Positions 15,539 through 57,310 of a stretch of DNA of 64,000 nt are shown here, one piece after another. Below the pieces are notes generated by a model. It was not told where the DNA came from. It saw only the letters and a program-made list of their open reading frames with translations, and searched no databases. The position numbers were made by a program, and so were the translations under genes. This stretch comes from Lingula anatina (Eukaryota > Animalia > Brachiopoda). Position 1 is the first letter of the stretch; the number at the start of each line of letters is the position of its first letter. The stretch covers positions 18,972,001-19,036,000 of the forward strand of contig CM120645.1 of the NCBI GenBank assembly GCA_051362555.1. The letters run 5' to 3'.

Positions 15539-16716
15539 TATGTGTAGTCTAACACGTAACGTTTTAGCCATCTCCAAATATCTGACGCCCAACGTGTTCG
15601 TCACGTCCTAAAACGTGATCGTCACGTCCTAAAACAAGTACCCAAAACGTTCAATGTGAAAAACTGATGTCAAGAATACCGGGAACAGGTCCTGTTAATA
15701 GTCCTGGGATTTTGTATACCCCCTTTTACACATGTATATATCTAAATTATCTCCATCTTTGTTGAGAACCACGGCATCTGTACCTATGTTCGCGTTATGA
15801 TATATTAGTAAAATCTAGAAACCCAGAATACAGTGTAAATTGATAGACGAGAGTTTGTATTGATGGTAAGCATGTTGTGAAATGAACATGTAACTTTTGT
15901 AAAGGAATAATCAATAACAAATTCCCTGACACGTTAATTTACATGCTTGAAAAGGCGAATGCCCTTGTAAGTATCTCATTTCGTTGGGTAGCATGACAAA
16001 AAAACTTGGTAATGAGTTAGAAGTACTGAAACGCGATAAAGATTTATTTTGTGTAACCAAAGACATGGTGTTTTCTAGGTATAAAATGTGTATTTTTCAG
16101 TCTCATTTGACAATTTTTCTTTCTAGACGGTAGGTGGCATTATGTCCATAAAAAACAAAAATATCAAATTCCTGCTTTTAAGAATTGGGGCTTATTTATC
16201 TCGTTGTTTACTTGTGATTCTCTATCTTTTTTCGATCTTCTTCACCATTATTCTAGAGCGAATAAAAGAATGAATAGATAAATAAGACAAATCGTTTTGG
16301 CCGGGAAATCTCGTATAAATTACTGATACTGAAGGACTGATCAAAAACCAGTAATGGTTACTAGCTTCAGATTCACCTATTTCATGATAAGTGATTAACC
16401 ATATCACCGAGGTTTGAAGAATTGTGCCAACGTCAACCATGTGAGTTCGTCAGTAATACCAGAACGGTTGCCTTCAGTCAATGAACAGTAACAAAATAAA
16501 ATTGCAGCAAAAAAGGTTTTAGATAAACGATTTTCGGCTGCAGTTCTCATCTGGAAATATCAGTGTGCATAAATTGAGACTGGGTTTCCTGGGAGCAAGT
16601 GCCCTCCCCCAAAGATAAAAATTAATTGTCTTGAGAATCTTTATAAAATGTTAGCCTTTTCCTTTTGCCCTGACCTACAGTATTATCTTACTTATTCTTC
16701 AGTGTTTATGAGACAA

Positions 16717-22500: not shown

Positions 22501-23317
22501 TCCTGGACTTCTATAAAGATTGCCATGTTCTATGTTGCTGACTAATACTTTCCTGATTTACCGCATTTCTGAGTGTCAACCTACAGTTCTTTTACTATTT
22601 TTGTTTCCACGCCAGCAGTAACCAATCCCCCGTTTACATGTGTTTCCGGACATAACATTTTTAAATAAGCAATAGGCCTAAGTGTTACAAAACAAATTCT
22701 TGCGATGTCCCAAATGTTTAGAGATCTTGATAGAAGATGTTTATTCCTTATGTTTTATTTTATGCCAGATATTCTTTTCCTCTGGGGTCTTACTAATGAT
22801 ATTTTATGACTAGGCATTGGCACTTTTAAATGCCAACGCCATGAGCTTAAGACCTTTATATAGCAATTTCTTTCTTGGAAATCTTAACGCCTTTTCTTTC
22901 ATTGCAGAGTATAGGCAACACGCTACACAGAATTACAATCCATAAACCCAGTCTTGAGCTCTAGCTTTTGGGTTCATCTCGCAGTGGAGATACTGGGTAG
23001 AGCCTGGTAAAATCACTCTAGTAAATGTAAATGTAAATATTTACTAAAAACGAGTTAATAGATCTTAATATTGTCAAATATTTTGAAAAGGCTATTCTTT
23101 GGTCACAAAGAGAAGATTGCTGACTTTTAAAGAAATATTGTTGCCCTATAATAATGTCTTTCATGGTGTTGTCAAAACCCATCAAAGATGAGAGTTGCAC
23201 CCTTTCAATACGAGGATGAAGAAGTGATTCTTAAAATGTTTTTCACATAATAATAGTATCTTTTCCAGAAAAGTTTTTTTTCTTCAGTTTTCTTGCCGAT
23301 ATTTCACCGTGCAATTA

Positions 23318-23601
23318 CCCGCATGAAAACGAAGTAGATACTCCAGCGCAGTAGACTACTGCAATCATACTGCAAACATGCTTCAAATCTGCTTCGATGT
23401 GGGAGCTAATTAGCATATTTGAAACATGCTTCTATCATGCTGCTAATCTACTGCATTAATGCTCCTCCTCTGTACAACCCTATGTAATTTTTGAAGTAGA
23501 ATTGCAGTAGGCTATACTGCATTTCTACTGCAAATATGCTCCACACCACTACTGCGTTAATGCTTCTTTGCTACTTCGATACTACTGCATTTTCGTGCGG
23601 G
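23318..23601 (-). mobile_element. 284-bp MITE, copy 2
   Basis: Reverse complement of 12040-12323 with only a few substitutions; TA TSD. Confidence 0.9.
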
Positions 23602-23621
23602 TAATCAAGTATATCTTGGAT

Positions 23622-30949: not shown

Positions 30950-31901
30950 CATATGATTTGTCCTCCAGTCGAGCAAATTGGATGTTTTTCTGAGCAAATT
31001 GCAATTCTGTAAGCGTAACCAACCAGTCTCTGAATCTTGGGGATTGCGTTTGACAGGACATGTAAAAAAAAAAAAAGATAAATGAGATTCACCTTGTTCA
31101 TATTGAAATTCGAGCCAACGTATACGTCATTCTGTCATTGCTATAAAGATACCAGCGTTGAGTTCCAGACATTTCCACTTTCATGCCAAACGTTTTGTAG
31201 CTGAAGTTGTATGATATGTCCCCAGTTAAAAAAAATAAGTCGGTTCCCTGGCTTAGTTGACTAGGATTTCCATGAGAGTGCTGTTACACTGATCCTGAAA
31301 GGGTCAAATGTCCCATGTGACCATGTAACATTGGTAATTCAGTTTTTAGCCAGGGAACCTGACTTATTTATTTATTTGTGAAACCGGGACATGGTATGTT
31401 TTTCCTAACTTGATCCGTTTGGAGCTGCCATGGGATTGATAAGATAAAACGACAGAATTTAATTTTTGTGAACCGAGATATCTGTTTACAATAAGTGGCA
31501 TAGATATGCAACGCTTCTTGCTCTTGAGAGCGGTTGTCACAACTGCGATTCTTTTCCTCATTTTTCACTTCCACATTTTTCTATTTTCTGCTTTGATATG
31601 TTGTTGCCAACAATGAGGATTTGCATATTTAATCTACGTTAACTGCGTATTACTCTGGGACTGCTCTGAAACTGACGTTCATTTAACCCTAATGCAACAT
31701 GGTAATTCAGGCAACAGTACATAATCTTTTTGTGTTTTTTTTTCAGAAACCGCAGGCTTTGTACCCACTACACTCTTAGTGCAACGCATGTTGAATGGTA
31801 TACCAAATGTCTGTTAAGCACTCGGACTGAGATTTTTCCATCAATCACAGACCACACATGTTAAACAATTACAAGCGAGGAGGTAGTCACTGAAAACCAT
31901 C

Positions 31902-33254
31902 ATGTCGACGACTGGAATTCCACGCAATGAAACAGTGCTGCCGTTGGAAAACAGTTCAGTTATGGCTGAGGCACTGATGCCCACGGTCATTTACAATTCG
32001 ACAGACGGCCGCGACCAATCGCTGACTGAAGCCGGGGGTTTAATTGCCATGGTGCTGATCACCATCCTGGGTGCTGTCGGCAACACCTGCCTTGTTGTAA
32101 TTATACTGGTATCCAAGAATCTAAGAAAGAATTTGACACATGCCTATGTTCTGAACCTCGCGTGCATAGACGGCTTAGCGTCCATATTACTTCTTCCTTT
32201 GGCTGCTGTGACATTCTCACGAGGCAGCTGGCAGCTGGGAACAGATAAGTTATGTTATGCAACGGGGTTTCTACACGTTATGCTGCACACCGCATCCATA
32301 TTGGGAATGTGCATTATTAGCGCAGAGAGGTACTACTCAATAGCTTTTCCAATGCGCCACAGTGCTAATTTGACCACTTCCAGAACCGTAATAACGATAA
32401 CAATAACATGGTTACCGCCGTTGATATTTTCCAGTATTCCGTATTTTATGTCTGATACAGGGTATTATCATGAGCCACGACCATCCATTTGCCTACCGCT
32501 GTTTGATTCAAAGGTTGGCGAGATTTTTTACGTTTTAATGGTGACAATATTTTGTTTTTGCATCCCGGCTGTAGTTATGGGTTGCATGTATTTTGGGATT
32601 CTTCAAGTCGCGAGGAAAACTGCGATTCAGGTGGGGCCGATTCCGGGCCAGTTTTTACCCCACGGCCCCAACACCTTTCAGCGTGAAGAACGATTCATAT
32701 TTGTCAATGTGACGACGCAGACTGATCGCACGACCGCCATAGCAACCGTTTCTGGGACGGACAGAGCTGGCGGGGCGTACACTAACACTGATCATGTCCA
32801 TAGCCAAGTCGTAAGAACGAGCAAAAGCCCCCCTCACACATGCAAAGCATTCCGAACGTTACTTCTCGTCTATGGATCTTTTTTGTGTCTTTGGGTACCT
32901 TACTACGTCATTTCATTGATAAGTCCATTCCAGAGCATTGACACGTATTATGTTTTGATAGCAACTTGGCTTGGCTACGCATCATTCGCCATTAACCCGT
33001 TCTTCTACGGTTGGCTCAATAGATCTATCAGAGAACAAATAGTGGAAGCACTGCAGCACTGTAAACGGAAGATTTTATGCCGTGACCCAGAGAGTGCGGT
33101 TCGCACTTCAGGTAACATTGAGGAAGCAGCAAATGGCGGCGGCTTAGAGAGCGGAGGGGCCTTTGAAGATTTCTATCAGTTCATTGGATGCAAAGCTAGC
33201 TACGATGCAAGGAATCGGCCGGGTGATACGACAAACATTGAGCAAAGGTTTTGA
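31902..33254 (+). CDS. GPR61: Class A (rhodopsin-like) GPCR, GPR61/GPR62-like orphan receptor, 450 aa, intronless CDS
   Basis: Seven hydrophobic segments; GN in TM1, LACID in TM2, ERY at TM3, LWVPY in TM6, NPFFY in TM7; N-terminal NET/NSS/NST sequons. VARKTAIQVGPIP, TWLGY...NPFFYGWLNRSIR and C-terminal EDFYQF resemble human GPR61 as recalled. Splice acceptor at 31746 implies a 5'-UTR intron. GPCR call is secure; the subfamily is less so. Confidence 0.9.
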   Translation: MSTTGIPRNETVLPLENSSVMAEALMPTVIYNSTDGRDQSLTEAGGLIAMVLITILGAVGNTCLVVIILVSKNLRKNLTHAYVLNLACIDGLASILLLPLAAVTFSRGSWQLGTDKLCYATGFLHVMLHTASILGMCIISAERYYSIAFPMRHSANLTTSRTVITITITWLPPLIFSSIPYFMSDTGYYHEPRPSICLPLFDSKVGEIFYVLMVTIFCFCIPAVVMGCMYFGILQVARKTAIQVGPIPGQFLPHGPNTFQREERFIFVNVTTQTDRTTAIATVSGTDRAGGAYTNTDHVHSQVVRTSKSPPHTCKAFRTLLLVYGSFLCLWVPYYVISLISPFQSIDTYYVLIATWLGYASFAINPFFYGWLNRSIREQIVEALQHCKRKILCRDPESAVRTSGNIEEAANGGGLESGGAFEDFYQFIGCKASYDARNRPGDTTNIEQRF

Positions 33255-36169: not shown

Positions 36170-37430
36170 AACTAGATGGTTCCAATGGGTACCCATTACA
36201 TAGACCTGCATTTCCCCAAATTGTAAAGAGGAACTCACATTCAGGGCCCCCACTGATTATCTATGACAATACCCGAGTCCTTTATGTATACTTATTGCAA
36301 ATAATTATTATAATAACAGCATAAAATAATATTGATGAAGAACGCTGAATGTAAAAAAAGTGTCATCCGCCCCCCCCTCCCCCCCTCCCCCCTCCAGGAA
36401 CAGCGCAACCCCAATGTGTTCATGAAATATGACTGGCCCATCCACAGCCCTGATGAGAGGGTTATCACTTCAGATCATTAATATCAATGATCTAGAGGAG
36501 GAGATAGCAGAACTTGAGGAATGGACTTGTACAATGTGCAAAGGAATTAGGTCAAAAATCACCCCCCCCCCCCCAAGGACAGCCAAACCCTAAGAAGCAC
36601 TTAATTTTGTGAAATGCCCACATTTGTGTTGATATGTCTGCGAATATCTTAAGTTTTAACTTCCTCATTTTAATAATCTGGGAGGAGTAAGCCGAAATTA
36701 CAATGTGGCAAGAATGAACAACCATCGACCCCAAAGGGCCAGCTCAACCCCCTTCCCGGACTAAAATTCTGAGCTGCCCAAGCTCAACCCTGATCATAGA
36801 TTGATCAATTACCAGAATTTGAACTTCCTCAATCTTATGGCCTGATAGGGGCCAGAAGAAATTACACTGTGAAAAGAATTTAGAGCTAACCATCCCCCAG
36901 GTACAACCCAACCCCTAGCTGCACTAAAATTCTGAAGTATAGGTCTACAGGCCCGTAGCCAGCAAATTCAAAAGGGGGGTTCTTTTTCTGAAAAAGTGGA
37001 CCTTTTACAATGAAACTTATGTGTACCTAGAAAAATTTTTACCCAAAATGGAACTTTTCCTGACAAAAGAGACGGTTCTTTCGAACCCCCCCCCCCCCCA
37101 AACCCTCCCTGGCTACGGGCCTGGTCTATAATTAATCCGCAAAGTTTCAACTTCCTAACTGTAATGGTCTAGAGGGGTTAGCAGAAATTACAATGTAAAA
37201 AAATAAAGAATCATCCACCCCCAGTGGCAGTCCAATGTCCTGTTGCACTACAATTCCGAAGTATCCATACACATCCCTGATGATAGGTCTATACATTCCC
37301 AAAGTTTCAACTTCCTAGCTCTAACTGTCTCGGAGGAGATAGCAGAAATTACTAAAGCAATGGTACACAGACTCGTGGACAGGCAGAGTAACATGACTTA
37401 GACTCTTGTCGCACAAGTGCAGGGATAATG
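36170..37430 (+). mobile_element. Composite Helentron/HINE (pearl-like) element with degenerate ~150-bp internal repeats and nested insertions
   Basis: Starts aactaga; recurring units ...aacttcct...ggaggag...agcagaaattaca; ends with acagac and a short palindrome (cttgtcgcacaag). Contains copy 2 of the 195-bp repeat and a MITE. Confidence 0.5.
36948..37123. mobile_element. 176-bp MITE with perfect 15-bp TIR CAGGCCCGTAGCCAG
   Basis: caggcccgtagccag ... ctggctacgggcctg, flanked by the direct repeat GTCTA. CAG termini are hAT-like. Confidence 0.85.
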
Positions 37431-37918
37431 GACTTTCATATGGCATCCCAATGCTCAAGAATATGATGATTAGCCGATCTAAGCCTGACGGTAGGTCAAC
37501 AAACATCAATGTGTTCCATAAATGATGGCATCTGAACATCTAAGCCAACCGAAATTTTGAGCAATCCTTGCACTTATATGCATTGTACATTAACAAGGCA
37601 TGTACGGACCAAGCTCAGTTAGTCAATATTTTTGGTAAATTTTCCAAATGTTCATAAATAGTTCAATGTTGACTAAGATATCCACATATTTTATTATCCG
37701 ATAACCAACATAGTTTGATACATAAATCATTTCTAGACCCCCCCCCCAAAAAAGGAAAAAAATTGGAATTTTCTCTGAAAAATAGGAAAAAATAACAAAT
37801 AGGAAAAAAATAGGAGCTTGACTCCCTGCATATCGTTAGCGACGACGTGAATCTCGCGAGACAAGACGAGAATTCTTTAGTGGATTTGGAGCAAAAAGGA
37901 AAAAAAAACAATTACCAA

Positions 37919-40900
37919 TTACTGTAGTGCAGCCATTATTTCTTCGGTTACTAAGCTGACTTTGGCGTGCATGGCGGAGGAAATCTCCTCCAACGTCTTC
38001 TTTAAACGTTCTCCAAGTCCGGGGACAATGTCATTAATTTCATTGACGAATCGTTTAGTGTTTTCCACGTCTTTGATCAGATTCAGAGCTGTTTCCATAT
38101 CGAAAATATCTCTCCCTTTACGATCTGTAGATAAATAATCAACGACACTGCATTAAAAATATCAAGTAACCAACAATATAAAGTATATCACAGTCTTATA
38201 AATGACCAATGGCATTCGCTTCACTTATCTACTTTTATAAACAAAAAAACGTTGTTTCGTAAAGGTATAAAAGAGAAAGACCAACCACCGAGAAAATCCA
38301 TTTACCTCCAACATTTCCCCCAGATAGAACTTCATCTGTGATGGAGTTGACAATGTTATGAAGAGCAGTAGTGATATCGTCAATACTTCCGTTGAGATGT
38401 TTCTGGATATCTGGGACAAGTTGTTTAAGTTCACTGAGAAAACGCTGGGTCATACCTACAGCGTTGATCACCTTCAGAGCGGTTCCTAGTTGAGTTCCAG
38501 ATGTCAAGGACTCCAAGGTGTCAAACAGACCACGACCTTTGCGATCTGAAAGATGAAAGTATATCTAAACAATTAACTTAGTGCAAGTACCTCTTTGAAA
38601 AGAATATTGAAACTTTTCGTTAAAGGACAGTATAAAGAAAATGCATACAGTTGACTCTTAAGAGTATGAAACAAACTTCAAAATGAAGAAACAGCAACAT
38701 TCTACAATGTTTGAAAGGACCTACAAATGATCAGTTATACTGTTTGTAAATAACATAACCAAAACTTTAAGTGAAACTTTCACCTCCAACATTTCCCACA
38801 GACAGAACTTCATCTGTGATGGAGTTGACAATGTTATGAAGAGCAGTGGTGATATCGTCAATACTTCCGTTGAGATGTTTCTGGATATCTGGGACAAGTT
38901 GTTTAAGTTCACTGAGAAAACGCTGGGTCATACCTACAGCGTTGATCACCTTCAGAGCGGTTCCTAGTTGAGTTCCAGATGTCAAGGACTCCAAGGTGTC
39001 AAACAGACCACGACCTTTGCGATCTGAAAGATGAAAGTATATCTAAACAATTAACTTAGTGCAAGTACCTCTTTGAAAAGAATATTGAAACTTTTCGTTA
39101 AAGGACAGTATAAAGAAAATGCATACAGTTGACTCTTAAGAGTATGACACAAACTTCAAAATGAAGAAACAGCAACATTCTACAATGTTTGAAAGGACCT
39201 ACAAATGATCAGTTATACTGTTTGTAAATAACATAACCAAAACTTTAAGTGAAACTTTCACCTCCAACATTTCCCCCAGACAGAACTTCATCTGTGATGG
39301 AGTTGACAATGTTATGAAGAGCAGTGGTGATATCGTCAATACTTCCGTTGAGATGTTTCTGGATATCTGGGACAAGTTGTTTAAGTTCACTGAGGAAACG
39401 CTGGGTCATGCCTACAGCGTTGATCACCTTCAGAGCGGTTCCTAGTTGAGTTCCAGATGTCAAGGACTCCAAGGAGTCAAACAGACCGCGACCTTTGCGA
39501 TCTGAAAGATAAAAGTATACCTAAACAATTAACTTGGTGCAGGTGCATCTTGAAATATAATATTGAGACATTATCATCTTAGGACAGTATAAAGAAAATG
39601 CACAGAGAATGCCGTTGTCTAAAAATGTGACCAACACTTCTAAATGAAGTAACTTCAATATTCTACCATTTTTGGTGGAAGCTTAAATTGCTCAGTTCTA
39701 ATATTTTTAAGATCAACTACACTTATAGTGAGACTTTCACCTCGAATATTTCCCCAAGATAGAACTTCATCTGTGATGGAGTTGACAATTCAAGACTTTC
39801 GCTTCGTTGAGATATCTGTTTTTTTTTTCAAACGTTGTTTGGTAATGGCATAAAAGAGAAATACCGACCACCGGGAAATTCCATTTACCTCCAACATTTC
39901 CCCCAGATAGAACTTCATCTGTGATGGAGTTGACAATGTTATGAAGAGCAGTGGTGATATCGTCAATACTTCCGTTGAGATGTTTCTGGATATCTGGGAC
40001 AAGTTGTTTAAGTTCACTGAGGAAACGCTGGGTCATGCCTACAGCGTTGATCACCTTCAGAGCGGTTCCTAGTTGAGTTCCAGATGTCAAGGACTCCAAG
40101 GTGTCAAACAGACCGCGACCTTTGCGATCTGAAAGATAAAGGTATACCTAAACAATTAACTTGGTGCAGGTGCATCTTGAAATATAATATTGAGACATTA
40201 TCATCTTAGGACAGTATAAAGAAAATGCACAGAGAATGCCGTTGTCTAAAAATGTGACCAACACTTCTAAATGAAGTAACTTCAATATTCTACCATTTTT
40301 GATGGAAGCTTAATTTGCTCAGTTCTAATATTTTTAAGATCAACTACACTTATAGTGAGACTTTCACCTCGAATATTTCCCCAAGATAGAACTTCATCTG
40401 TGATGGAGTTGACAATTCAAGACTTTCGCTTCATTGAGATATCTGTTTTTTTTTCAAACGTTGTTTGGTAATGGCATAAAAGAGAAATACCGACCACCGG
40501 GAGATTCCATTTACCTCCAACATTTCCCCCAGATAGAACTTCATCTGTGATGGAGTTGACAATGTTATGAAGAGCAGTAGTGATATCGTCAATACTTCCG
40601 TTGAGATGTTTCTGGATATCTGGGACAAGTTGTTTAAGTTCACTGAGGAAACGCTGGGTCATGCCTACAGCGTTGATCACCTTCAGAGCGGTTCCTAGTT
40701 GAGTTCCAGATGTCAAGGACTCCAAGGAGTCAAACAGACCGCGACCTTTGCGATCTGAAAGATAAAGGTATACCTAAACACTTAATTTGGTGCAGGTGCA
40801 TCTTGAAATATAATGTTGAGACATAATCTCAACAAAACTGAAAGTGAAACTTGCACCTCGAATATTTCCCCAGAAAAAAACTTATCTGTGGTGGAGATGA

Positions 40901-43098
40901 CAATTCAAGACGTTCGGTTCATTTATAAATCTATAGTTTTCAAAAACGTTGTTTTGTATTGGCATTACAGAGAAAGACCGACCACCGAGAAAATCCATTT
41001 ACCTCCAACATTTCCCCCAGATAGAACTTCATCTGTGATGGAGTTGACAATGTTATGAAGAGCAGTAGTGATATCGTCAATACTTCCGTTGAGATGTTTC
41101 TGGATATCTGGGACAAGTTGTTTAAGTTCACTGAGAAAACGCTGGGTCATACCTACAGCGTTGATCACCTTCAGAGCGGTTCCTAGTTGAGTTCCAGATG
41201 TCAAGGACTCCAAGGTGTCAAACAGACCACGACCTTTGCGATCTGAAAGATGAAAGTATACATAAACAATTAACTTGGTGCAAGTACCTCTTTGAAAAGA
41301 ATATTGAAACTTTTCGTCAAAGGACAGTATAAAGAAAATGCATACAGTTGACTCTTAAGAGTATGAAACAAACTTCAAAATGAAGAAACAGCAACATTCT
41401 ACAATGTTTGAAAGGACCTACAAATGATCAGTTATACTGTTTGTAAATAACATAACCAAAACTTTAAGTGAAACTTTCACCTCCAACATTTCCCCCAGAT
41501 AGAACTTCGTCTGTGATGGAGTTGACAATGTTATGAAGAGCAGTAGTGATATCGTCAATACTTCCGTTGAGATGTTTCTGGATATCTGGGACAAGTTGTT
41601 TAAGTTCACTGAGGAAACGCTGGGTCATGCCTACAGCGTTGATCACCTTCAGAGCGGTTCCTAGTTGAGTTCCAGATGTCAACGACTCCAAGGTGTCAAA
41701 CAGACCGCGACCTTTGCGATCTGAAATATGAAAGTATACCTAAACAATTAACTTGGTGTGGACAGGTGTATCTTGGAAAAGAATATTGGATTTTTTCGTC
41801 TAAGGGCAATATACAGAAAATGCATACAGTTGACTCTTAAGAGTCAAACTTCAAAATGAAGAAACAGCAACATTTTACAATGTTTGAAAAGACATACAAA
41901 TGATCAGTTATACTGTTTGTAAATAATATAACCAAAACTGAAACTTTCACCTCCAACATTTCCCCCAGACAGAACTTCATCTGTGATGGAGTTGACAATG
42001 TTATGAAGAGCAGTGGTGATATCGTCAATACTTCCGTTGAGATGTTTCTGGATATCTGGGACAAGTTGTTTAAGTTCACTGAGGAAACGCTGGGTCATGC
42101 CTACAGCGTTGATCACCTTCAGAGCGGTTCCTAGTTGAGTTCCAGATGTCAACGACTCCAAGGTGTCAAACAGACCGCGACCTTTGCGAACTGGAAAGTA
42201 GACGTTTAAAGACCTTGAAGTTTTAGTAACATGTGTATAGAATCTATATATTTATATATTACATCTATTAGCTTTCGATATTTCAAATAGACAACTGTCC
42301 GCAAATATATCTCTTTTCTTTTTATTTTTCAATAATTATGAATGTGTCCAGTATGTGATAAGGACATACATGTAAATACAGTCAGAAAGGAGAATTCAAA
42401 AGCAAGGAGGAGATGGGTGTTAGTGAGGATTTAGGACTACCTCATCTTTGGCAATGAATCTAATTGTTCTATTGTCCCGCCGCCCGATAATGCCACTGAG
42501 GCAAAAGTTTGACTTAATCGCATACGTAAACACTACTTCAAGATATGTCACCGGGAAACACGATGTAACGTACGAACACTATGACAAAATATAAAACTAC
42601 TGGTTTTTGTTCCAATTCTATGTCATCAATAAGTTCCTTATGTTATTTCCATCAATTAAAAAACTACCTTCTTCTTTACAATCCGACTTGACGTCATTTG
42701 CGATTGCATTGATGACGTTATGTAAAGAGGTAGCAACGTCCTCTATGCCACCACGGATGTGATTCTGAAGGCCGGGTACGATAGATTTCAGTTCGTTGAC
42801 AACTCGGCCGGTGGCACGGAACGCTTTGACCAAATCCAGCGCAGGCCCAGGTTTGGTGCCACATTTTAGGAACTCAAGAGAGTCGAACAAACCGAGTGCC
42901 TTTACATCTGAAATAAACGACGTTTTTGAGGTAAAATTATCACATATTTTTGATATTCTTGGTACAGAGTTTTTATATTATATATAAACGTAAACAGCAG
43001 TGTTTACTAAACCCCGACCCGTATCAGTGTGACACAATGATATATAATACTGATTATAGACTGAAACTGGTAGGGATTATTAACCTCTGCTGTTTTTG

Positions 43099-43173
<75 letters not shown>

Positions 43174-43659
43174 GGATGCCGGTAATTACTGATTCAAGAG
43201 ATTTCAAATTTGAAATAAAGCATAGCCAATATGCAGTTTGAGTTTTAGAGCGAATGGTATTTCCTTTGATACCATTAACGGTGACAGAGATTAAAAAAGC
43301 CTCATGGAAGCGATATTTGGTCTACATAACTTGAGGACTGGCTGTAATCTGCCGTCACGAAAGGCCATGACATTCAAATGAACAATCCTTTCCTTTGTAA
43401 TAGCCGTATTGCAGAAACATTATTCATTTCGTGCTGTGAAATTGTTGGCTTGGCAACGATGACTGAATAACAGTAGCTTTTGCATGTGTTAACAAAGTAT
43501 TTAATCAGCAAGTCCTCAAGTTATGTAGACCAAATATCGCCTTGCTCATTTTAAACTTGGTTTCTATCTTTCACAATTAAGTTTTCTTTTAATTTTAAGA
43601 CCGCAAATTAATCCATCCTGATTAAATACTTATTATCCCTTTAACCTCTGCTATTTTTG

Positions 43660-43737
<78 letters not shown>

Positions 43738-43979
43738 CATGCGTGAGTGTGGAACAGAGTGCTCAACATAATTAATAATTAATATTAATGATAATAATTA
43801 ACAGTTTAATAATGATAACACCAGATACTCTAAATAAAAGAACTGAAATAATTACCATGTGCCGGCATAAAGTGACGTAACTAACACGGCGTGCGACGTA
43901 AGTGTCGTCACGCCGTGTATGTAAAACGGGGTTATTGCATGTCTTTTGTTTATTTATTTATTTATTTATTTATTTTAAT

Positions 43980-44040
<61 letters not shown>

Positions 44041-45014
44041 GATGCCGGTAATTACTGGTTCAAGCGATTTCACATTTGAAATAAAGCATAGCCAATATGC
44101 AGTTTGAGTTTTAGAGCGCATGGTATTTCCTTTGATACCATTAACGGTGACAGCGATTAAAAAAGCCTCATGGAAGCGATATTTGGTCTACATAACTTGA
44201 GGACTGGCTGTAATCTGCCGTCACGAAAGGCCATGACATTCAAATGAACAATCCTTTCCTTTGCAATAGCCGTATTGCAGAAACATTATTCATTTCGTGC
44301 TGTGAAATTGTTGGCTTGGCAACGATGACTAAATAACAGTAGCCTTTGCATGTGTTAACAAAGTATTTAATCAGGATGGATTAATTTGCAGTCTTAAAAT
44401 TAAAAGAAAACTTAATTGTGAAAGATAGAAACCAAGTTTTAAATGAGCAAGGAGATATCTCACTGCGAGAGATTTAAAAACGTTCTACCCAAAACAAGTA
44501 CATGTATATGTTTAATGTTTCGTCTTATTATCGATTAAACGTGGGCATTGGTGCAAGGGTAAAGTTTCTAAATATCATAAAATTTATCTTAAATTTAGTT
44601 TTTTATTTTGTTCTGCGTCTTCCTTTTTCACCCCACGCCATACATATGACAGATAAGAGCCTATACCGTCAGCTGGAAAATATTCCACTAAATACGCAGC
44701 TTGAAATATATAGTAGGTTGTTTGCTTTAGATTTATGGTTAACATGTATCTTTTAGGGGCTCCATAATATGGCGCTTATTTTTCGCAGGTATTCATTTCA
44801 GGTGCTGTTTTGCTTGAAGCATTTTGTTCGAGAAAAAGGTTATCTGCAGGCGAAAAAAATTTCGAGGCATTTAGTAAAATTTCTAAAAATTATGCTTCTT
44901 TTTCGTCCACCCTAATTTAGTTTTAATACATCCTCATCAAATATGGTTTTCCTCACCTTGGCCTTTAACCAGCTGGGCACATATCAGCAAGGCTATCGTG
45001 AGCAATTGTTTCAT
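37919..45014 (-). CDS. Secreted tandem-repeat polyprotein, 807 aa, 11 coding exons, unknown family
   Basis: Exons in transcript order: 45014-44957 (MKQLLTIALLICAQLVKGQ, signal-like), 42907-42668, 42190-41951, 41720-41481, 41242-41003, 40754-40515, 40128-39889, 39501-39262, 39023-38784, 38545-38306 (each 240 nt, AG/GT, phase 1-1), and 38124-37919 (ends TAA). Spliced length is 2424 nt with no internal stop. Confidence 0.88.
38306..42190 (-). repeat. Tandem array of eight near-identical exon+intron units (periods 470-627 bp)
   Basis: Each exon encodes DRKGRGLFD(T/S)LESLTSGTQLGTALKVINAVGMTQRFLSELKQLVPDIQKHLNGSIDDITTALHNIVNSITDEVLSGGNVG. Introns measure 238, 238, 387, 386, 248, 238 and 230 nt. 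Confidence 0.97.
43079..44452. repeat. Intronic duplication/inversion complex with three (TA)n tracts
   Basis: 43170-43508 is nearly identical to 44037-44373; 43541-43631 is the reverse complement of 44361-44451; (TA)n at ~43100-43168, 43660-43735 and 43985-44036. Confidence 0.9.
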
Positions 45015-45543
45015 TATTCTACCTCTCCTGTCCTTTGGTAACCTACAATAAACAAGTATTTACTTTGATTTTAGATTTGATTGAATAGACATGTACATTT
45101 AGAATTGCATTTTAGGTCTTTCTGGTAAATCGTTATCTTTTTCACATCCTAAATGCAACTGGTGAGAAGAAGAACGATGTTTGGATTGAATAAGTTTATG
45201 AACTTTTTTTCCGGTTGTAACTCATTGGGTTTTTTACACATTAAAAGACAGCAAATCATACGTTTTGGTTCACTCAGTACACTAAAAACAAGTCGCTAAT
45301 AATCTGCGTGGTCACGACAGTAAAGACTTTCAAGTAAAGACAATTAAAATTGTCTAGATGAAACACCAAGTACACTTTCCAGAATTCTCTGCCTAATTAT
45401 TAAACATAATTTTTTTCAAAAGAAACGCTTAGACTGTCCATGCCTCACTGGCAAAACTGTTTATTCTTTGTTATCCCAGTAAAGATTTTACATAGAACCG
45501 TAAAGTATTCAGATCACTTTTCCCATGAGTATACCATTTTAGT

Positions 45544-45600
45544 ACTTACCTTAAGTATCGTCCACCTCTGTCAACAGTAACCCGGTGTCAAGGAGCAAAC
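45544..45600 (-). other. Candidate 5'-UTR exon end of the polyprotein gene
   Basis: Consensus donor AAG|GTAAGT at 45550/45549. The signal-peptide exon has an acceptor (ttgtag) at 45043, so an upstream non-coding exon is expected. Upstream boundary is unknown. Confidence 0.4.
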
Positions 45601-47006
45601 TACTTATGGGCTCCCATCATCACGTTAATCCAGTCCCACCTGGGTTATCGTGGTTTTCGTGGGATTATGTCGCTTCGTGTTGGGTAACATCTCACCTCGT
45701 GTCAAATGTTGCGTTCACATACATCGAGAGCGAGTTCTGTCTACATGAACCAACCTCGCGTGGTGGGTGGGGGATGTCACGAACAGGTTTACAAATAGAA
45801 ATATCAGATTGAAACTAGATAAATTTATTAAAAAAACAAAAAAAACGTCACACATAAATACGATGTGTGTGTTCGATTAGCTGAATAGTTATCATTTCTT
45901 GACAATATTTGTTGTCCCCTGGACATTAATAAAGAAGTGCTATGCTTAATTTGGTTCTCACTTATTAGGATTCTGCGTCATAAGCGTTTTTCCTACTTTT
46001 GACAAGTACCTTAAACTCATACAGCTTCCAGTGCGTATCTGTGCATATGCATGTTTTTGTTTGTTTGTAAAAGTCTGTAAAATATGAGAGACTTTCTTCA
46101 TCACTTCGCACAGCATGTGAACAAATGACTTTTTGGCCATTATATAAAATATAATATATTCCTGCCCATATACTTAGTAAGCATCATACATAAAAACTGT
46201 ATATATTTTACTTACTTTTGCGATTGACATCTACAGAAATTCAGAAATTGACTTCATCAGTGTGTCCGAGTTACGTTTTTATACATGTGATTATGAAAAT
46301 TCCAAAAGTAATTTAATTCAAAGGATATTAAAAGCTTATCCAGAACCTTATCCAAATTATATAATACAATAAATGAACCAGAAGAATACATGTTAATTAT
46401 ACAAAACATAACTAAATGTGAGATTAAGAACTTGGCTAGATTCGGAATGGGAGCAGATGACCTTCCAATGCTGAAGGAAAGAGGCTAACAGCAATCTCTG
46501 AATAGGAAAGAACAGGTAAACTTTTTAAATTGACAATAGAAGGAGAGCCTCATTTCCTGAATATAAAACGGAAATGCTCCTCTTACACCAAACATAGCAA
46601 AGAGCTCTAAGTAAAAAAAAAAAAAAAAAGAAAAGAAAAAAAGGAGAGCAAACCCAAGTTCTTGTTGCAGACAAAATAAAAAACATGACACAGTGTTCAG
46701 ATTACTTGGCGAACTTCATAACAAAGTGCAGTAAAATGAGATTTGATATACCGAACCATCCACACAGGCGACAAGCAAGAGACGGGCGAATATGATTATA
46801 TCAATATTGACTGTGTATGTTTGTTTGTGTGTTTGTCTCTGTGTGTATTTTATATATTTAACAATGCATGGTTTGTTTAATATACCTCTCACTGTACAAC
46901 TATAACATACATGTACTGTAACTGTTACACAAGCCTTTGCAACAAACATGCTTGACTTAGGCCTATAGTTATATGAATGATCATGATAATTATATGAATT
47001 TCATAA

Positions 47007-50529: not shown

Positions 50530-51700
50530 GGAGGGTGGGCTACTTTCTCGGGGATTTAAACCAAAAGAACATGAGTTATTCAAACTTATAATTAAATGTT
50601 TTTCTATTCCATATACAGGTAATAAACCGGCAAAACATTCAACAAATAATTTATTTTTGTGACACTTATGACACTTATGTACTGTATATAAGGAGGGCTT
50701 CGTCAGCCGACCTTTTGAAAAGCTGGTACTATACACATGTACTCTAACATAAGCTTTGGTTTGGGGTTGGTGTTTCCACTGTGATGACTATACTCTTTGT
50801 ATAGAAGAACTCATTTACCAGCAAACGTGGTTTTGTGCATCTCTGTACACGCACTCAAAAAAGACTGTGGACGTGTTCCAAAGCTACATGCTTTCCATGG
50901 CTACATATCCTGCAAAGCTACTTAACTCTCTTAATTCAGACCACAGAAACTACGATACTCCTAAAATAAAAAGCCCGCTGCCCTGGCGTTGATGCATGTA
51001 GTTCCTTTTTATATCTACAAGAAGACTGGTCAGTCATTTAGTACTAAATTATTTGATTTTAATCTAAAAAATAGAAAAATCTAATCCAATGGCAGGGACA
51101 AGTCGAACAATGATATATGAGTTGGAAAAAATTATTTTGCCGGGTAAAGAGTAGGCCTACTTTAAATTTCTCTTGGCGGGAGAAGAGGTCGATGCCAGTT
51201 ATTTTGAGGAAATTAGAATTGGTGAAAAAAAGCTGATCGTATATCCTTATTGCATTCCACAGTGAAGTATACCAGTATCTCGTCCTTGACCGTGCCCTTG
51301 TTACAGGTTTGGCATGAAGGTCGCTCGGGACTCGGGACGTTTTGCACATATCGCCAGCTATCAATTTGTGAAGAGTGAACATTTGTTCTGTTAATGCGAG
51401 TTTTATCGAGTGTCATACGAATGTAACGTAAAATACGGCCTTAAAATGCAATAAAATAGGTGCATGATTTAGGGATATATCTCCTGATCGAACTGTTCAT
51501 AATTATTTTTGCAATTACAGGAAAGACCCAGTGGCGGATTTGTGGTTAAAAAAAAAATAATTATAATAAATAAATAAATTAAAATAAAACTAACTTAGCT
51601 ATGCTGTTGGTAATCTTCCGAAACGTAGGCCTACATTCATTCGTTCTTCAGTATGGTAATTTTTGTTAATGCGCGGGGTTTATTGTAGTTTTATAATTAA

Positions 51701-52024
51701 AGGGATAATAACTCTTCGTTTTGGCCAAAAAATGAATTTTCCAGGAATAAACAACAATTTTCCCATACTTACCAATGGTTAATGAATCCATTTTTACATT
51801 CAAAGTTAGTCCCTGGTTTTTTTTTTAAAGTTTGGTTTTTTGTTAAAATCTCTTAAGAGATTTTTAACAGAGTATAGCCATCAATGGAGGTCACGTGGTC
51901 TAAAGACAAGCTCAGATATCAAACTGCCGTTTTTGTGGTAAAACAGAATATATTATATTTCTATGAGTTATTCACAATGTCTTTATTGTGAAATATAGAT
52001 CTCATATGAAGAGTTAGTATCCCT
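51701..52024 (-). mobile_element. TTAA-targeting MITE (Kolobok-like), copy 2
   Basis: TTAA|agggataataactcttc ... gaagagttagtatccct|TTAA; reverse complement of 7347-7683 with a short internal deletion. Confidence 0.8.
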
Positions 52025-52997
52025 TTAACTAGTAATTCCACCAAAACCACACTAGTTTTTATACCAACAGCAGATGAGGCACAAAACACGTATTCACTCG
52101 CTTTATTTCCAACTCCTCGCGCAAGCAATTATAATAAAAAGCTTGTTCACAACATTATACCGGCATTTAAACACAACTGCTCTTTTCACTGTTGATACCA
52201 TCATCATGTTTTGACATATTCTTTTGGCTTTTCAAAATGATGTTTTTCATGCTGGTTGAAATAATTATTCGTTTTTTTACACTGTTTTCGACGAAATATA
52301 ATCATGGTGTAATAAAAAGTTGCATAAATTCTTCATGTACCCCGGGTTTTGAAGCCTTTTTAAAACTCATTTCGTACGCCCTTGCCAATATTGAATTGTT
52401 GAAACTATGCTGGGCAAAGAAAAGGCACAACCAGTCCTATAATAAACACAGGGTGATCTCGGAATAATAAGAGAGCGTGTATATCGGGAAGAATATTCAT
52501 ACCAATATCATTTGCATAGTGCTTCCAGCTGAAGACTGAACGACGCTATAAAAGCATGATGCCAACCCCGCTGGGTTCACCCTTCTTGTTCTTTTTCACG
52601 GCTGCGCTTGTCATTCTAGTGAGAAACGAGTACTATGCGTATGCCGACCAAGTAAGTATTTAATATTCAATTTGAAATGAACGATTAAAGGCACAGTAGT
52701 TGATTTATTTGTGAGAAGTACGACCGGACCACTCGGCGGTGAGGATTTTGATCGCCTTTTCTCTTAATGTCCACTGTCAATTTCATCTATAATATTCCAA
52801 ACGCTTCTTTCGAATAACCCTTTCGGCACTTCTAAGGGACAGAGAACGAACGGCAAATGGTGTGAATAATGCTTGAACCCTGTATCTAGTAAAACAGATC
52901 ACCTATCTGTATCAAATTTAAGACACCACTTCTAAATTGTTCTTCCATTTTTGACAGTACTGCAAGAAACAAACATAAAACATAAACAAAGGATCAC

Positions 52998-54608
52998 GTG
53001 CATTTGATTAAATGGAATACACGCTTTTTATGGAAATTACCTAACGAATCGGGTTTCCTGAGTGGACACAGCACAGAATATCAATTGCTATCGATTGATA
53101 TTCTGATTAGGGACAATTTCAGAAATGGTCTTGATACTAGAGGTATTTTCCTCGATTTTGCTGCTGCATTTGACAGCGTACCTCACAGTCTCCTATTGCT
53201 GAAACTTATATCCTATGGTTTTAGAGGTAAACTGCACTCTCTCTTGGCCTCTTATCTGAGCAATAGGAAAATCAGAGTACGCATAAACGGTACCCTTTCA
53301 AAGGTCTCAGAGACAAACTTCATCAATACCAGTGTTCCGCAAGGAAGTATACTCGGCCCGCTTCTATTTCTTCTGTATATAAACGACCTACCTGACGGTC
53401 TTATCTCGCACTGCTTTATATATGCTGATGATACTTCGATCTTTTTCCCGTCTACCCCGGAGAACAGGAAAGCTCATGATATTCTCCAGTCTGACATTTC
53501 ATACCTTGAAGCATGGTCAGTGAAGTGGAAATTATTTTTTAAACCAAAAAAGTGCAATGAAGTGATTTTTACTACGAAAAAAGAAAATGTAGAAAAGTAC
53601 AGTCCACTTCTTCTATGCAACACGGCTATATCACAGGAAAAATACCACAAACACCTTGGGTTTATTCTTGATCATAAACTTGACTGTTCCGAGCATATTG
53701 TTATATATACTTTAAGCAAGGCGCAAAGTGCACTAAATCCTTTAAAATCGCTTTCTAAAACTCTACGATCTAAGCATCTTAACATACTTTATAATGCGTA
53801 CATTTCTCCTTTGCTTGATTATTGTGATGTTCTCTATAGCTCTGCGTCTCTACATAACCTATCAAGGCTATCCTCCCTCCAGTATCAAGCTGGCCTTAAT
53901 ATACTGGGGGCCCTTCCTGGCTCAAATCGCTGTAAAGTACTGAAACAGCTGAACTGGGTTTCACTAGAGGAACGTCGAAGAAACCACGCGAAAAAAATTA
54001 TGTTTAATATCCACAATCAACTAGCACCTTCCTATGTCTCTACCTATTTCATCCCGTTTAGAAATAAATCCATGCTACCCCTACGAACAACATCTAAAAG
54101 AGACTACATTATTCCCTCTAAATTTACATACAAAGGTCCTGAACATTTTTTGATGACAAGCTGGGATGAACTAAATACCACTCAAAAAAATCTTCCTTCT
54201 GCATCCTCCCTCAAATATAACCTTAGAAATGAAACCTTCCCAGCAACAATGTCCACCACCCATCTGAAGCTTCCGAGACAAAATGAAAAAATCCTAAATA
54301 AGGCCCGGGTCGATTTGTTATTTAGAGCCCAACTATATGACCACAACTGGACAGCTATGGCTTCTCCCAACTGTTTATGTGGGAAACCCGAAACCATTCG
54401 ACATTTTTTCTTTCAATGCCCACTGAAACTGAGGAAATATCGCGATCTCTACGAATCTGTTGAAGATACACTTGGTGTAACTTACTCATATTTCAGAACC
54501 CAACTAGATAAGATATCCCTCTTCCTACATGGCCATAAAACACTAACATCTGGACAAAACGACAAAATTTTTGAAATAGTGTCTGATTTCTTAATTAAAA
54601 ATGTCTGA
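52998..54608 (+). CDS. LINE ORF2 reverse-transcriptase fragment (uninterrupted; first 17 codons are flanking host DNA)
   Basis: SGF..GHST, FLDFAAAFDSVPH, VPQGSILGPLLFLLYINDL, YADD, KHLG motifs; C-terminal CLCGKPETIRHFFFQC zinc knuckle; no endonuclease domain. Confidence 0.9.
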   Translation: MHLIKWNTRFLWKLPNESGFLSGHSTEYQLLSIDILIRDNFRNGLDTRGIFLDFAAAFDSVPHSLLLLKLISYGFRGKLHSLLASYLSNRKIRVRINGTLSKVSETNFINTSVPQGSILGPLLFLLYINDLPDGLISHCFIYADDTSIFFPSTPENRKAHDILQSDISYLEAWSVKWKLFFKPKKCNEVIFTTKKENVEKYSPLLLCNTAISQEKYHKHLGFILDHKLDCSEHIVIYTLSKAQSALNPLKSLSKTLRSKHLNILYNAYISPLLDYCDVLYSSASLHNLSRLSSLQYQAGLNILGALPGSNRCKVLKQLNWVSLEERRRNHAKKIMFNIHNQLAPSYVSTYFIPFRNKSMLPLRTTSKRDYIIPSKFTYKGPEHFLMTSWDELNTTQKNLPSASSLKYNLRNETFPATMSTTHLKLPRQNEKILNKARVDLLFRAQLYDHNWTAMASPNCLCGKPETIRHFFFQCPLKLRKYRDLYESVEDTLGVTYSYFRTQLDKISLFLHGHKTLTSGQNDKIFEIVSDFLIKNV

Positions 54609-54917: not shown

Positions 54918-56694
54918 ACCTAACGAAAACTATGGAAATTAGCTGCACAACTTTGAGTGCATTTTGTTTTTGTTCTTTATTTTCGAATTTTTTTCATAAC
55001 TTTGACAGTATGGAAGAATATTAAATTAAATGTAAAGCCAAAAGTGACTGAATGCCATGTCTACATGGACGAGACTGCAGAGGGGTGCTGGAAAGTATGT
55101 AGAGCCTACAACACGGATACCGCACGCTGTGCACAATGTTTTCCATTATCTTTCTTATTATCATTATTATTACTTTCTATTCAATTTCATTTTATATTGT
55201 TCCTTTTTATATTATCTAATTTTATTCTACTTCATTGTTTCTTTTTCTCCCCTTTTTTTAGATTACTGAAAAAGCCGCTGCACCTAGCTCGTATTAGAGA
55301 AAAAAATTTTGGCATTTCTTTAAGGCATATGACGCAAATGATGACGGAGAAGTGGACCATCACGAGTTCGTTGATTTAACGGCCGAAAGAGGTGCCAAAT
55401 TACCTTCGTGGAGAGTTAAAGCAGTGAAAGGATTTATGGAAAGCATATGGGTGACTTACTGGTGTAACGAGTTTACTCATTTCAAGAGCACATTCCAAAT
55501 CAAGGACTTCGTCGACATATCCTCTCGCAATATGTACAGGATTACACCATGGAAGACACTGGGCTTGACTGGTGTGAGGAATGGTTCCACATCATAGATG
55601 AAGACTGCAGTGGCGCGATTTCCATTAATGAATATTCGGTATTTCTTGTTATTTTTCGGAACGATCCGGCTTCGTTCGTTGTCTCATTCAATGCAACGGA
55701 CAGAGATGGAAATGGGATGATAAGTAATGAAGAGTTTATTAATGGGTGCGAGCATTTTTACCACGAAAATGAGGAATCCCCAGCATCACTTTTCTACGGA
55801 GATAAAAGAATAATGACTTAAAGTCACTCTGATCATTGTTCTTTTTCTTTTTGTGAGAAATAAATAAAATATATTTTGTCATGATGAAGCTGACATGTTA
55901 CGTACTCTTGTTTGTGTATTCCCAACAGAAATTGCGAGATGTTGATAACAATACAAACTGTAGGCACGTAAACAATGGTTTACGACCTTTGATCTTTCTT
56001 TGATCTTTCAACGCGTTTCCCATACAAATATTTTAGTAACTTTTGTAGTTCACACAGTAATATTTGAATTCAAAAACGCATTTTTTCTTTATATATTCGT
56101 TTTGATATTTTACTATTTTAATATGCCCACCACTACCAGAAAAGAAAAGAAAGAAATTAAAGAAAGAAAAAACTTTTAATTTGTAATCACTGAACTCCTC
56201 CTAAACGCATTGTTTTCTACTTGAAACACTCCAGCTGGATGCGACTGATGAGGACCGTTCGGAAGGCTGAACAAGCATTAGGCCCTTAATACATTTAGCA
56301 AGTCCTTGCACGCCTTTATTTGTGATATTTTTTGTTGTTGTCCCTTTTTCCCAGGAAATGGCAAGGTCCAGGATTTAGCTAAGTGGTTGATTGGGGCACA
56401 ATAAAAAACCGGAAAATAAAAATATCAAGGCCAAGGGCGCTAATAGGGGCATCACTGGGAATAAAACAATATAACGTACTTCTTCTAGGGAGAGAGTAAT
56501 TAAGATTTTATAGGAAAACATTTTATAAGTTCTCTCAAATGCTTTGACTGATTCGATTGTTTAGTTTGTTTTTCTAGTTTATAATTATCCTTCACCCTTA
56601 ACCAGCGCGCAAACCCCTCAAAGCGAACCCCACCCACCCAGCCTCTAGACTACAAAACAGTAGGGGCCTACATACCGGTAGATTACATACACAG

Positions 56695-57199: not shown

Positions 57200-57310
57200 A
57201 CCAGAAAATCCAAGAGAGAGAAACTTGGGTGAAAAATATCTCGAATACCTGTTTGTAAGCTCTTAAATTGTTTACTCGTCTGCACAAATTAATATCTCAA
57301 GCATCACAGA

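What the first reader, a model, noticed from the sequence alone, without database searches (positions are those of the whole stretch)
37919..45014. Hidden 807-aa secreted polyprotein: one exon per unit, RKGR cleavage site at each junction
Seen: the ORF track shows only eight truncated 'MESLTSG' ORFs. Splicing instead joins a 19-aa signal-like exon to nine exactly 240-nt phase-1 exons and a 206-nt terminal exon, with no stop. Units 2-10 all begin (D/V)RKGR, followed by GLFD (DIFD in the last unit). Unit 1 follows the signal peptide and has DVKAL-GLFD instead, so the basic site is missing only where signal peptidase already provides the cut. Established: R-X-X-R is the minimal furin/proprotein-convertase site, and signal plus tandem units split by basic sites is the design of nematode polyprotein allergens and multi-copy toxin or antimicrobial precursors. 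Inference: one transcript yields about eight identical ~76-80-aa proteins plus two divergent partners. I recognise no family for the unit, so this may be an undescribed secreted product (venom, mucus, adhesive, egg coat or lipid carrier).
Basis: partly seen in the sequence, partly recalled or inferred. Interest (0 to 1): 0.92.

Follow-up and report, generated by a model that had tools for sequence, protein, structure and literature searches.

The report
Undescribed secreted polyprotein family of invertebrates
A lamp-shell (brachiopod) gene with ten look-alike exons is predicted to encode a secreted chain of ten helical units of about 8 kDa; it belongs to an unnamed family also found in chitons, limpets, snails and horseshoe crabs, and its units are probably cut apart after an arginine and may work as lipid binders.

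Summary
Observation confirmed: eleven minus-strand exons with AG/GT ends give an 807-aa frame, with RKGR before units 2-10. The gene is not hidden: RefSeq models it as Lingula anatina LOC106178393, uncharacterized, with six units. New here: a profile search finds the same 75-80-aa unit in signal-bearing tandem proteins of a chiton, two limpets, two snails and horseshoe crabs, with no Pfam family or solved relative. In four mollusc proteins 26 of 26 units follow an Arg, and Arg is almost absent elsewhere, which supports cleavage. The conserved signal is that single Arg; R-X-X-R is Lingula-only. Units are strongly amphipathic predicted helix-Pro-helix hairpins whose charge varies between species. 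Best guess: cleavage releases apolipoprotein-like lipid binders (0.45). Splicing, cleavage, tissue and function were not shown; eight RNA runs gave no junction reads. Horseshoe-crab members lack the Arg. Interest 0.62: a new variant of a known design (tandemly repetitive polyprotein).

The parts
45696..45724 (-). Upstream exon 1, part from an in-frame ATG to the GT donor (probably 5' leader; true 5' end unknown)
   Evidence: Older database model P0004 maps here; 43 of 44 residues match over the three 5' exons
45550..45567 (-). 18-nt upstream exon (cag/gtaagt)
44957..45042 (-). Signal exon, 86 nt; coding from ATG 45014 (19 aa + 1 nt). Signal-peptide-like; predicted cut after Gly18
   Evidence: hydropathy of 9-residue windows peaks at 3.1; same start in XP_013417001.1; SignalP not available
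42668..42907 (-). Unit 1 exon (240 nt): DVKAL-GLFD..., two Cys, 47% identical to B units
   Evidence: RefSeq allele has Arg at the Leu
41951..42190 (-). Unit 2 exon (B1), VRKGR-GLFD
41481..41720 (-). Unit 3 exon (B2), DRKGR-GLFD
41003..41242 (-). Unit 4 exon (B3)
40515..40754 (-). Unit 5 exon (B4)
39889..40128 (-). Unit 6 exon (B5)
39262..39501 (-). Unit 7 exon (B6)
38784..39023 (-). Unit 8 exon (B7)
38306..38545 (-). Unit 9 exon (B8), identical in DNA to B3
   Evidence: about 300 read-bases in RNA run X7 lie on it
37919..38124 (-). Terminal unit 10 coding part (206 nt with stop), DRKGR-DIFD, 32% identical to B with a 10-residue gap
37690..37695 (-). AATAAA, candidate polyadenylation signal about 220 nt after the stop
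   Evidence: only AATAAA/ATTAAA in 37918-37300; use not shown
40368..40416 (-). 49-nt relic of a B exon's 3' end inside intron 6 (also 39741-39789 in intron 7; decayed copy 40857-40904 in intron 5): trace of recombination in the array

Best explanation
The gene is predicted to encode a secreted tandem polyprotein that is likely cut after the Arg of each RKGR into ten 7-8.6-kDa amphipathic helical units, which probably bind or emulsify lipid in the manner of small exchangeable apolipoproteins. Shown: the exon anatomy, open frame, purifying selection on the exons, the family across three phyla, the Arg before every mollusc unit, and the amphipathic pattern. Inferred steps and odds: spliced as modelled (about 0.95); secreted through an 18-aa signal (0.9); cut after Arg by a convertase in the secretory path or by a trypsin-like enzyme outside (0.8); each freed unit, starting G-L-F/L-D, forms a short helix plus a helix-Pro-helix hairpin whose exposed hydrophobic face is buried by oligomer formation or on lipid (0.55). 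Symmetric 240-nt phase-1 exons let unequal crossing-over add or drop units without frameshift, which would raise output per transcript and homogenise the units.
For: Frame and splice signals. Selection on exons. RefSeq models XP_013417001.1 and .2 give the same layout with 4 and 3 B units; an older model uses an 18-nt 5' exon, which points to spliced-read support (inference). RKGR is kept between B and unit 10 (32% identical) through three changed codons, including CGY to AGA. Family: 23 hits at E<=0.001 among 1.84 billion representatives; 2 of them (P0020, P0025) failed re-test. Named members are from Liolophura (7 units), Patella (8), Gigantopelta (7-8), Lottia (4), Batillaria, Limulus and Tachypleus. 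In the four complete mollusc proteins 26 of 26 units follow Arg; only 6 of their 35 Arg lie outside P4-P1 of a junction. Mean hydrophobic moment exceeds 1000 of 1000 shuffles for each of the three unit types, with peaks at 3.60-3.67 residues. Over 34 family units the helix after the Pro peaks at 3.67-3.75; in the 14 residues before the Pro, 64 of 93 Lys/Arg lie 60-120 degrees from the hydrophobic face. Unit net charge in the mollusc proteins is -2 to +6 and -5 for Lingula unit 10, while amphipathicity is kept. AF2 of unit 1: helices 4-10, 16-38, 42-72, pLDDT 67.5. No 19-residue transmembrane stretch after the signal. Precedent: nematode polyprotein allergens are cleaved lipid binders (PMC3079579, introduction and passages read).
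Against: No junction read was found. In four runs that hold the organism's transcribed repeat, only about 300 read-bases (one run, consistent with one read pair) lay on a B exon and none on unit 10 (6-30% of each run read). No proteomic evidence of cleavage. Chelicerate members have Tyr, not Arg, before their G-F starts, so the unit can exist without the Arg site. RKGR is only the minimal furin motif (PMC11209347 passage). Lipid binding rests on sequence pattern alone: Pfam apolipoprotein, ApoLp-III and Taeniidae antigen scores are far below their cut-offs. Acidic residues are not confined to the middle of the polar face in the helix before the Pro (33 of 52 at 60-120 degrees), so the class-A pattern is only partial. 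An 11/3 period also fits right-handed coiled coils (established knowledge). Both AF2 models are of low confidence (pTM 0.33 and 0.41).
Confidence: 0.45

Rival explanations
1. Cleavage frees membrane-active defence polypeptides (antimicrobial or cytolytic) whose G-L-F/L-D N-terminal helix inserts into membranes.
For: Signal plus Arg-separated repeats. The freed N-terminus resembles frog-skin antimicrobial peptides such as aureins and citropins (recalled, not tested). A weak Uperin-family score for the Lottia protein (E 7e-4, under the cut-off). Gigantopelta units are cationic, +2 to +6.
Against: Lingula B units (pI 5.5) and unit 10 (pI 4.6) and the chiton units are acidic. The unit is conserved at 44-46% between brachiopod and limpet and homogenised within species, not diversified as defence peptides often are (established knowledge).
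Confidence: 0.2
2. The units are structural: after cleavage they self-assemble through 11/3-period helices into bundles or fibres in mucus, cement, egg coat or another extracellular matrix.
For: Hydrophobic positions after the Pro fall at 6, 10, 13, 17, 20/21, 24, a hendecad pattern. High dosage by repeat expansion. Weak fold matches are helical hairpins that form four-helix bundles, such as ESAT-6/CFP10 (E>=4.4).
Against: Absent from the Lingula shell-proteome supplement, where a control identifier was found (PMC13425148). No low-complexity, Tyr-, Cys- or Gly-rich glue motifs. Searches of Lottia shell and Patella pedal-mucus supplements found nothing but had no positive control.
Confidence: 0.2
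3. The protein works uncut, as a chain of helical repeats; the junction Arg is a linker or structural residue.
For: Limulus, Tachypleus and P0031 have four units of two alternating types and no Arg at the unit starts. 18 of 26 mollusc junctions are monobasic at P2-P1. The window allele lacks the first Arg. No cleavage data exist.
Against: Arg stands exactly before the unit start in 26 of 26 mollusc units whose P4-P2 residues differ freely; 8 of 26 are KR or RR; Arg is purged from the unit bodies. The Atlas model of the uncut RefSeq protein has no confident fold (pTM 0.18).
Confidence: 0.12

Closest known systems
Lingula anatina LOC106178393 (XP_013417001.1/.2) and LOC106159799 (XP_013391654.1), RefSeq 'uncharacterized protein'
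   Same: Same gene: identical layout, 3 residue differences in the stretches compared (first 179 and last 68 residues).
   Different: 4, 3 or 2 B units against 8 here (collapsed assembly or copy-number variation, not resolved); Arg24 instead of Leu24; no description of repeat, cleavage or family found in the searched literature.
Nematode polyprotein allergens (NPA/ABA-1), the type case of tandemly repetitive polyproteins (PMC3079579)
   Same: Secreted tandem precursor of near-identical helical units with divergent units among them and regularly spaced basic sites; proposed lipid-binding role.
   Different: No sequence match. [quoted passage not shown] Here units are 75-80 aa with three predicted helices and no Trp, follow a single Arg, and sit one per exon between 181-477-nt introns.
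Small exchangeable apolipoproteins (apoC, apoA-II), insect apolipophorin III, cestode 8-kDa antigen B / hydrophobic-ligand-binding proteins (features recalled)
   Same: Size about 8 kDa, Pro-punctuated amphipathic helices with about 3.67 period, lysines at the helix flanks.
   Different: Pfam scores under the cut-offs; those proteins are single-copy products, not polyproteins; lipid binding untested here.
Multi-copy linear antimicrobial peptide precursors (magainin, aurein/citropin type; recalled)
   Same: Signal peptide, repeats released after Arg, N-terminal G-L-F/L-D amphipathic helix.
   Different: Units are much longer, have no acidic spacer, are acidic in Lingula and the chiton, and are conserved across phyla.

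Membership tests
Tandemly repetitive polyprotein (design class) | Large precursor of repeated similar or identical units | tested here: met
   10 homologous units, 8 within 1-2 residues
Tandemly repetitive polyprotein (design class) | Regularly spaced protease sites between units | tested here: met
   RKGR every 80 residues, 9 of 9 junctions; Arg in 26 of 26 mollusc junctions
Tandemly repetitive polyprotein (design class) | Post-translational cleavage into free units | not testable with these tools
   needs proteomics or a western blot
Tandemly repetitive polyprotein (design class) | Very small or no introns in the repeat region (PMC3079579 introduction) | tested here: not met
   one exon per unit, introns of 181-477 nt
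Nematode polyprotein allergen (NPA/ABA-1) | Sequence homology of the unit | tested here: not met
   no such Pfam family listed at E<=1 and no ABA-1 chain at E<=10 in PDB sequence searches
Nematode polyprotein allergen (NPA/ABA-1) | Conserved Trp and disulfide; K/R-X-K/R-R site | tested here: not met
   no Trp in the Lingula or mollusc proteins, no Cys in B units, site is RKGR
Nematode polyprotein allergen (NPA/ABA-1) | Seven-helix fold | tested here: inconclusive
   low-confidence models show 3-4 helices; ABA-1 not among listed fold matches
Furin substrate | Minimal R-X-X-R motif | tested here: met
   9 of 9 junctions and nowhere else in the protein; motif per PMC11209347 passage
Furin substrate | Optimal R-X-K/R-R motif, conserved in relatives | tested here: not met
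   0 matches in the protein; P4 Arg in 0 of 26 mollusc junctions
Exchangeable apolipoprotein / ApoLp-III / cestode antigen B | Pfam score above the curated cut-off (PF01442, PF07464, PF05596) | tested here: not met
   best 27.2 vs 90, 22.6 vs 36.3, 16.2 vs 31.9 bits, in relatives only
Exchangeable apolipoprotein / ApoLp-III / cestode antigen B | Amphipathic helices of about 11/3 period broken by Pro | tested here: met
Exchangeable apolipoprotein / ApoLp-III / cestode antigen B | Class-A charge layout (basic at the flanks, acidic mid polar face) | tested here: inconclusive
   basic residues at the flanks before the Pro, acids central after the Pro, neither helix shows both cleanly
Exchangeable apolipoprotein / ApoLp-III / cestode antigen B | Reversible lipid binding | not testable with these tools
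   needs a binding assay
Cationic linear antimicrobial peptide precursor | Net positive mature product | tested here: not met
   B unit pI 5.5, unit 10 pI 4.6; only unit 1 mildly basic

The most novel reading that the evidence does not exclude
An ancient protostome family, unrecognised by Pfam and unnamed in the searched literature, of apolipoprotein-like 8-kDa lipid- or membrane-binding units. Brachiopods and molluscs mass-produce them as exon-per-unit polyproteins activated by a cut at Arg|G-L-(F/L)-D, while chelicerates keep them as four-unit chains or cut them at Tyr. It would be a third major kind of tandemly repetitive polyprotein beside filaggrin and the nematode allergens, and one where cut and uncut versions of the same unit can be compared.
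Probability: 0.4. Interest if true: 0.8.

Novelty: new variant of a known kind. Interest (0 to 1): 0.62.

Why it matters
Tandemly repetitive polyproteins are described as rare, and why they exist is called unexplained (PMC3079579, introduction). This family offers natural contrasts for that question: unit number from 4 to 10, Arg, dibasic and Tyr junctions, and units homogenised within each species, in an exon-per-unit gene that departs from the intron-poor pattern of known cases. A secreted unit kept at about 45% identity between brachiopod and limpet and recognisable in horseshoe crabs probably has a basic physiological role that nobody has assigned. If it binds lipid it would be a new lipid-carrier or emulsifier family in invertebrates. 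It is cheap to test: one 75-residue, Cys-free unit.

Tried and rejected
Expression: no RNA holder listed. Runs X8, X2, X5, X6 gave 0 reads on 41745-43090, which is no test because the organism was not shown in those runs. No whole genome is held, so paralogues elsewhere could not be sought; no further copy in the window. Word-seeded searches found only the Lingula cluster or nothing; they missed the family that one search found, so they say nothing about absence. ESM Atlas: no usable hit by features, structure rows all TM<=0.30. PDB by sequence: nothing credible; best a designed repeat protein (E 2e-4) and CapZ beta (E 0.18). Folds: Foldseek none at E<=0.001; VIA-align best Z 7.8, rmsd 2.1, 75 aligned (I-BAR), within the range the tool calls non-specific for helical models. 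Pfam and NCBIfam hits on whole repeat proteins (Baculo_PEP_C, DUF948, DUF7217, TBCA, Exo70_C and others) pass some cut-offs only by summing weak stretches, with 0 stretches passing alone, and single units score under every cut-off shown: rejected as repeat artefacts. Hits P0020 and P0025 rejected (no unit over 15 bits). Neuropeptide precursor: rejected; units are 63-80 aa, and the passages shown for family motifs and identifiers in the supplements of PMC8557429 and PMC6425005 were unrelated proteins (two files of the latter were cut when stored). Assembly stutter: unlikely, as the copies differ and introns fall into distinct types. Literature: no relevant paper for the Lingula, Lottia, Patella, Gigantopelta or Limulus identifiers or motifs (the ten listings were unrelated number matches by title), nor in supplements of PMC4595640, PMC13121700, PMC13425148, PMC4094399, PMC7333891. 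Subscription journals are mostly not searched. Earlier findings of this scan: none.
Full report
Observation. On the minus strand, a 58-nt coding stretch from ATG 45014, nine 240-nt exons and a 206-nt terminal coding part have AG acceptors and GT donors in phase 1. They join to 2424 nt, 807 residues and one stop. Unspliced, each 240-nt exon runs into a stop within 84-119 codons. Of 3341 yAG sites in the window, 10 are followed by an open 240-nt phase-1 exon with GT; the 9 unit exons meet that description. Because the copies are duplicates, selection is the better test: 7 of 9 in-frame variable sites among the eight B exons are synonymous (P about 0.001), and seven B exons differ by 1.7% against 12.4% in the 60 intron bases before them. 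Unit 1 is 47% and unit 10 is 32% identical to B.

What gene it is. The B unit matches XP_013417001.1, 'uncharacterized protein LOC106178393' of the brachiopod Lingula anatina, at 100%. RefSeq models the same layout with four B units (487 aa); isoform X2 has three and a second locus, LOC106159799, two. So the gene is not hidden, but its unit count differs; collapse in the older assembly and allelic variation are both open. An older model (P0004) extends over two further exons, 45724-45696 and an 18-nt exon 45567-45550, with 43 of 44 residues matching and canonical ends. An 18-nt exon and alternative isoforms usually come from aligned transcripts; that is inference. My own read tests gave no junction. 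In four runs whose reads covered a transcribed repeat beside the gene, only about 300 read-bases in X7 lay on a B exon and none on unit 10. Four other runs gave nothing and are no test. Expression is therefore probably restricted, and is not shown here.

The family. Word-seeded searches found only Lingula. A profile of the three unit types against 1.84 billion representatives gave 23 hits. I looked up 20 of the 22 non-self hits; two failed re-test. Named members, all uncharacterized or hypothetical, are from the chiton Liolophura sinensis (7 units), the limpets Patella vulgata (8) and Lottia gigantea (4), the vent snail Gigantopelta aegis (7-8), the snail Batillaria attramentaria, and the horseshoe crabs Limulus polyphemus and Tachypleus tridentatus (4). 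The complete chiton, limpet, Gigantopelta and horseshoe-crab proteins have a hydrophobic N-terminus (10-residue hydropathy 3.0-3.5). The Lingula B unit is 44-46% identical to Lottia units, and the RefSeq protein aligns to Limulus at 25%, E 4e-22. Within species the units are near copies (2 distinct of 4 in Lottia, 5 of 7 in the chiton). By eye, 8 of 10 single-unit ORFs from unnamed contigs end their homology in a G/S/R-E/K pair, as read-through of a phase-1 donor gives. That hints at one exon per unit elsewhere too; no DNA was available to test it.

Cleavage. RKGR occurs nine times, every 80 residues, and is the only R-X-X-R in the protein; none is R-X-K/R-R. R-X-X-R is the minimal furin motif (PMC11209347, passage read). 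B and unit 10 keep RKGR through three changed codons. In the four complete mollusc proteins 26 of 26 units follow an Arg, and only 6 of 35 Arg lie outside junctions. P4 Arg occurs in 0 of 26, KR or RR in 8 of 26. The conserved signal is thus Arg|(G/S/F)-L, and which protease acts is open. The first unit also follows Arg in all four molluscs and in RefSeq Lingula (DVKAR); the window has Leu there. Against universality, chelicerate members have two alternating unit types and Tyr before their G-F starts.

The unit. Each unit type has a mean hydrophobic moment above 1000 of 1000 shuffles, with peaks at 3.60-3.67 residues. Across 34 family units anchored on the central Pro, the following helix has a 3.67-3.75 period, two lysines before the Pro are nearly invariant (31 and 32 of 34), and a G-T-K-L-G-like motif follows the first helix. 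There is no Trp or Tyr in the Lingula and mollusc proteins, and net charge per unit runs from -5 to +6. AlphaFold2 gives a short helix and two long ones hinged at the Pro (unit 1: pLDDT 67.5, pTM 0.41; B unit alone: 56.3, 0.33). No Pfam family, solved structure or Atlas cluster matches.

How it most likely works. A signal peptide (hydropathy only; no SignalP) sends the precursor into the secretory path. A convertase or trypsin-like enzyme probably cuts after each Arg, giving one unit 1, eight B units and one unit 10. A hairpin of two amphipathic helices leaves hydrophobic surface exposed, so the units would oligomerise or sit on lipid. Conserved amphipathicity with free net charge, 8-kDa size, 11/3 period and flank lysines best fit a small apolipoprotein-like lipid binder or emulsifier (0.45 for the whole chain of steps). 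Rivals: membrane-active defence (0.2), self-assembling matrix or mucus component (0.2), uncut repeat protein (0.12). The gene is absent from the Lingula shell-proteome supplement, where a control identifier was found (PMC13425148, passages and supplement search). Symmetric exons allow in-frame gain and loss of units; mixed intron types and three exon-tail relics in introns 5-7 record such recombination.

Comparison and novelty. It works, by design, like a tandemly repetitive polyprotein; PMC3079579 (introduction read in full, other passages seen) calls these rare, names filaggrins and nematode polyprotein allergens as the best cases, and notes very small or no introns in their repeats. It is not an NPA: no homology, no Trp, different site, one exon per unit. 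It is not an apolipoprotein by Pfam cut-offs. No description of the family was found in the searched library or in seven papers' supplements (search results only, two files cut when stored); subscription journals are largely outside the search. Of PMC7333891 I saw the abstract and a supplement search; of PMC4595640, PMC13121700, PMC4094399, PMC8557429 and PMC6425005 only listings and supplement searches. Features of apolipoproteins, antigen B and frog antimicrobial peptides are recalled, not taken from a call.

Verdict. A real, conserved gene; a known precursor design with an undescribed unit family spanning Brachiopoda, Mollusca and Chelicerata. Cleavage is likely but unproven and function is a pattern-based guess.

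Noticed in passing
window 31887-33254 (+): Single 455-codon open frame encoding a rhodopsin-family GPCR (PF00001, E 3e-43).
   Followed up: partly
window 52986-54608 (+): 540-codon open frame with a reverse transcriptase domain (PF00078, E 1e-21), probably a LINE-type element.
   Followed up: partly
window 55468-55821 (+): Exon of an EF-hand protein; resembles a sarcoplasmic calcium-binding protein (recalled, untested).
   Followed up: partly
window 57293-57778 (+): Open frame with a GYNSEDEY motif recalled from OTUD5 deubiquitinases; no Pfam hit for this exon.
   Followed up: no
window 43118-43508 and 43984-44374: 391-bp direct duplication (97.7%) inside the gene's long intron, each copy beside a (TA)n tract; the N-terminus of RefSeq LOC106159799 is translated from this intronic repeat, so that model's start is probably wrong.
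   Followed up: partly
window 37000-37130: Dispersed repeat covered by RNA reads from other copies (mostly 90-99% alike) in all four runs.
   Followed up: no
window 12038-12325 / 23316-23603; 7343-7688 / 51696-52028; 4453-4604 / 15395-15541: Long inverted-orientation repeat pairs (92-97% identical), probably dispersed mobile elements.
   Followed up: no
P0031 (KAB1093444.1): A family member labelled Acinetobacter baumannii has a signal-like N-terminus and the alternating layout of the horseshoe-crab proteins; probably an animal sequence under a bacterial label (inference).
   Followed up: no
P0009: Single-unit ORF from an unnamed contig, 85% identical to the B unit: a closer relative of this gene than any mollusc.
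   Followed up: no
window 45724: In-frame upstream ATG would add 25 residues before the signal peptide if the two 5' exons are used.
   Followed up: partly
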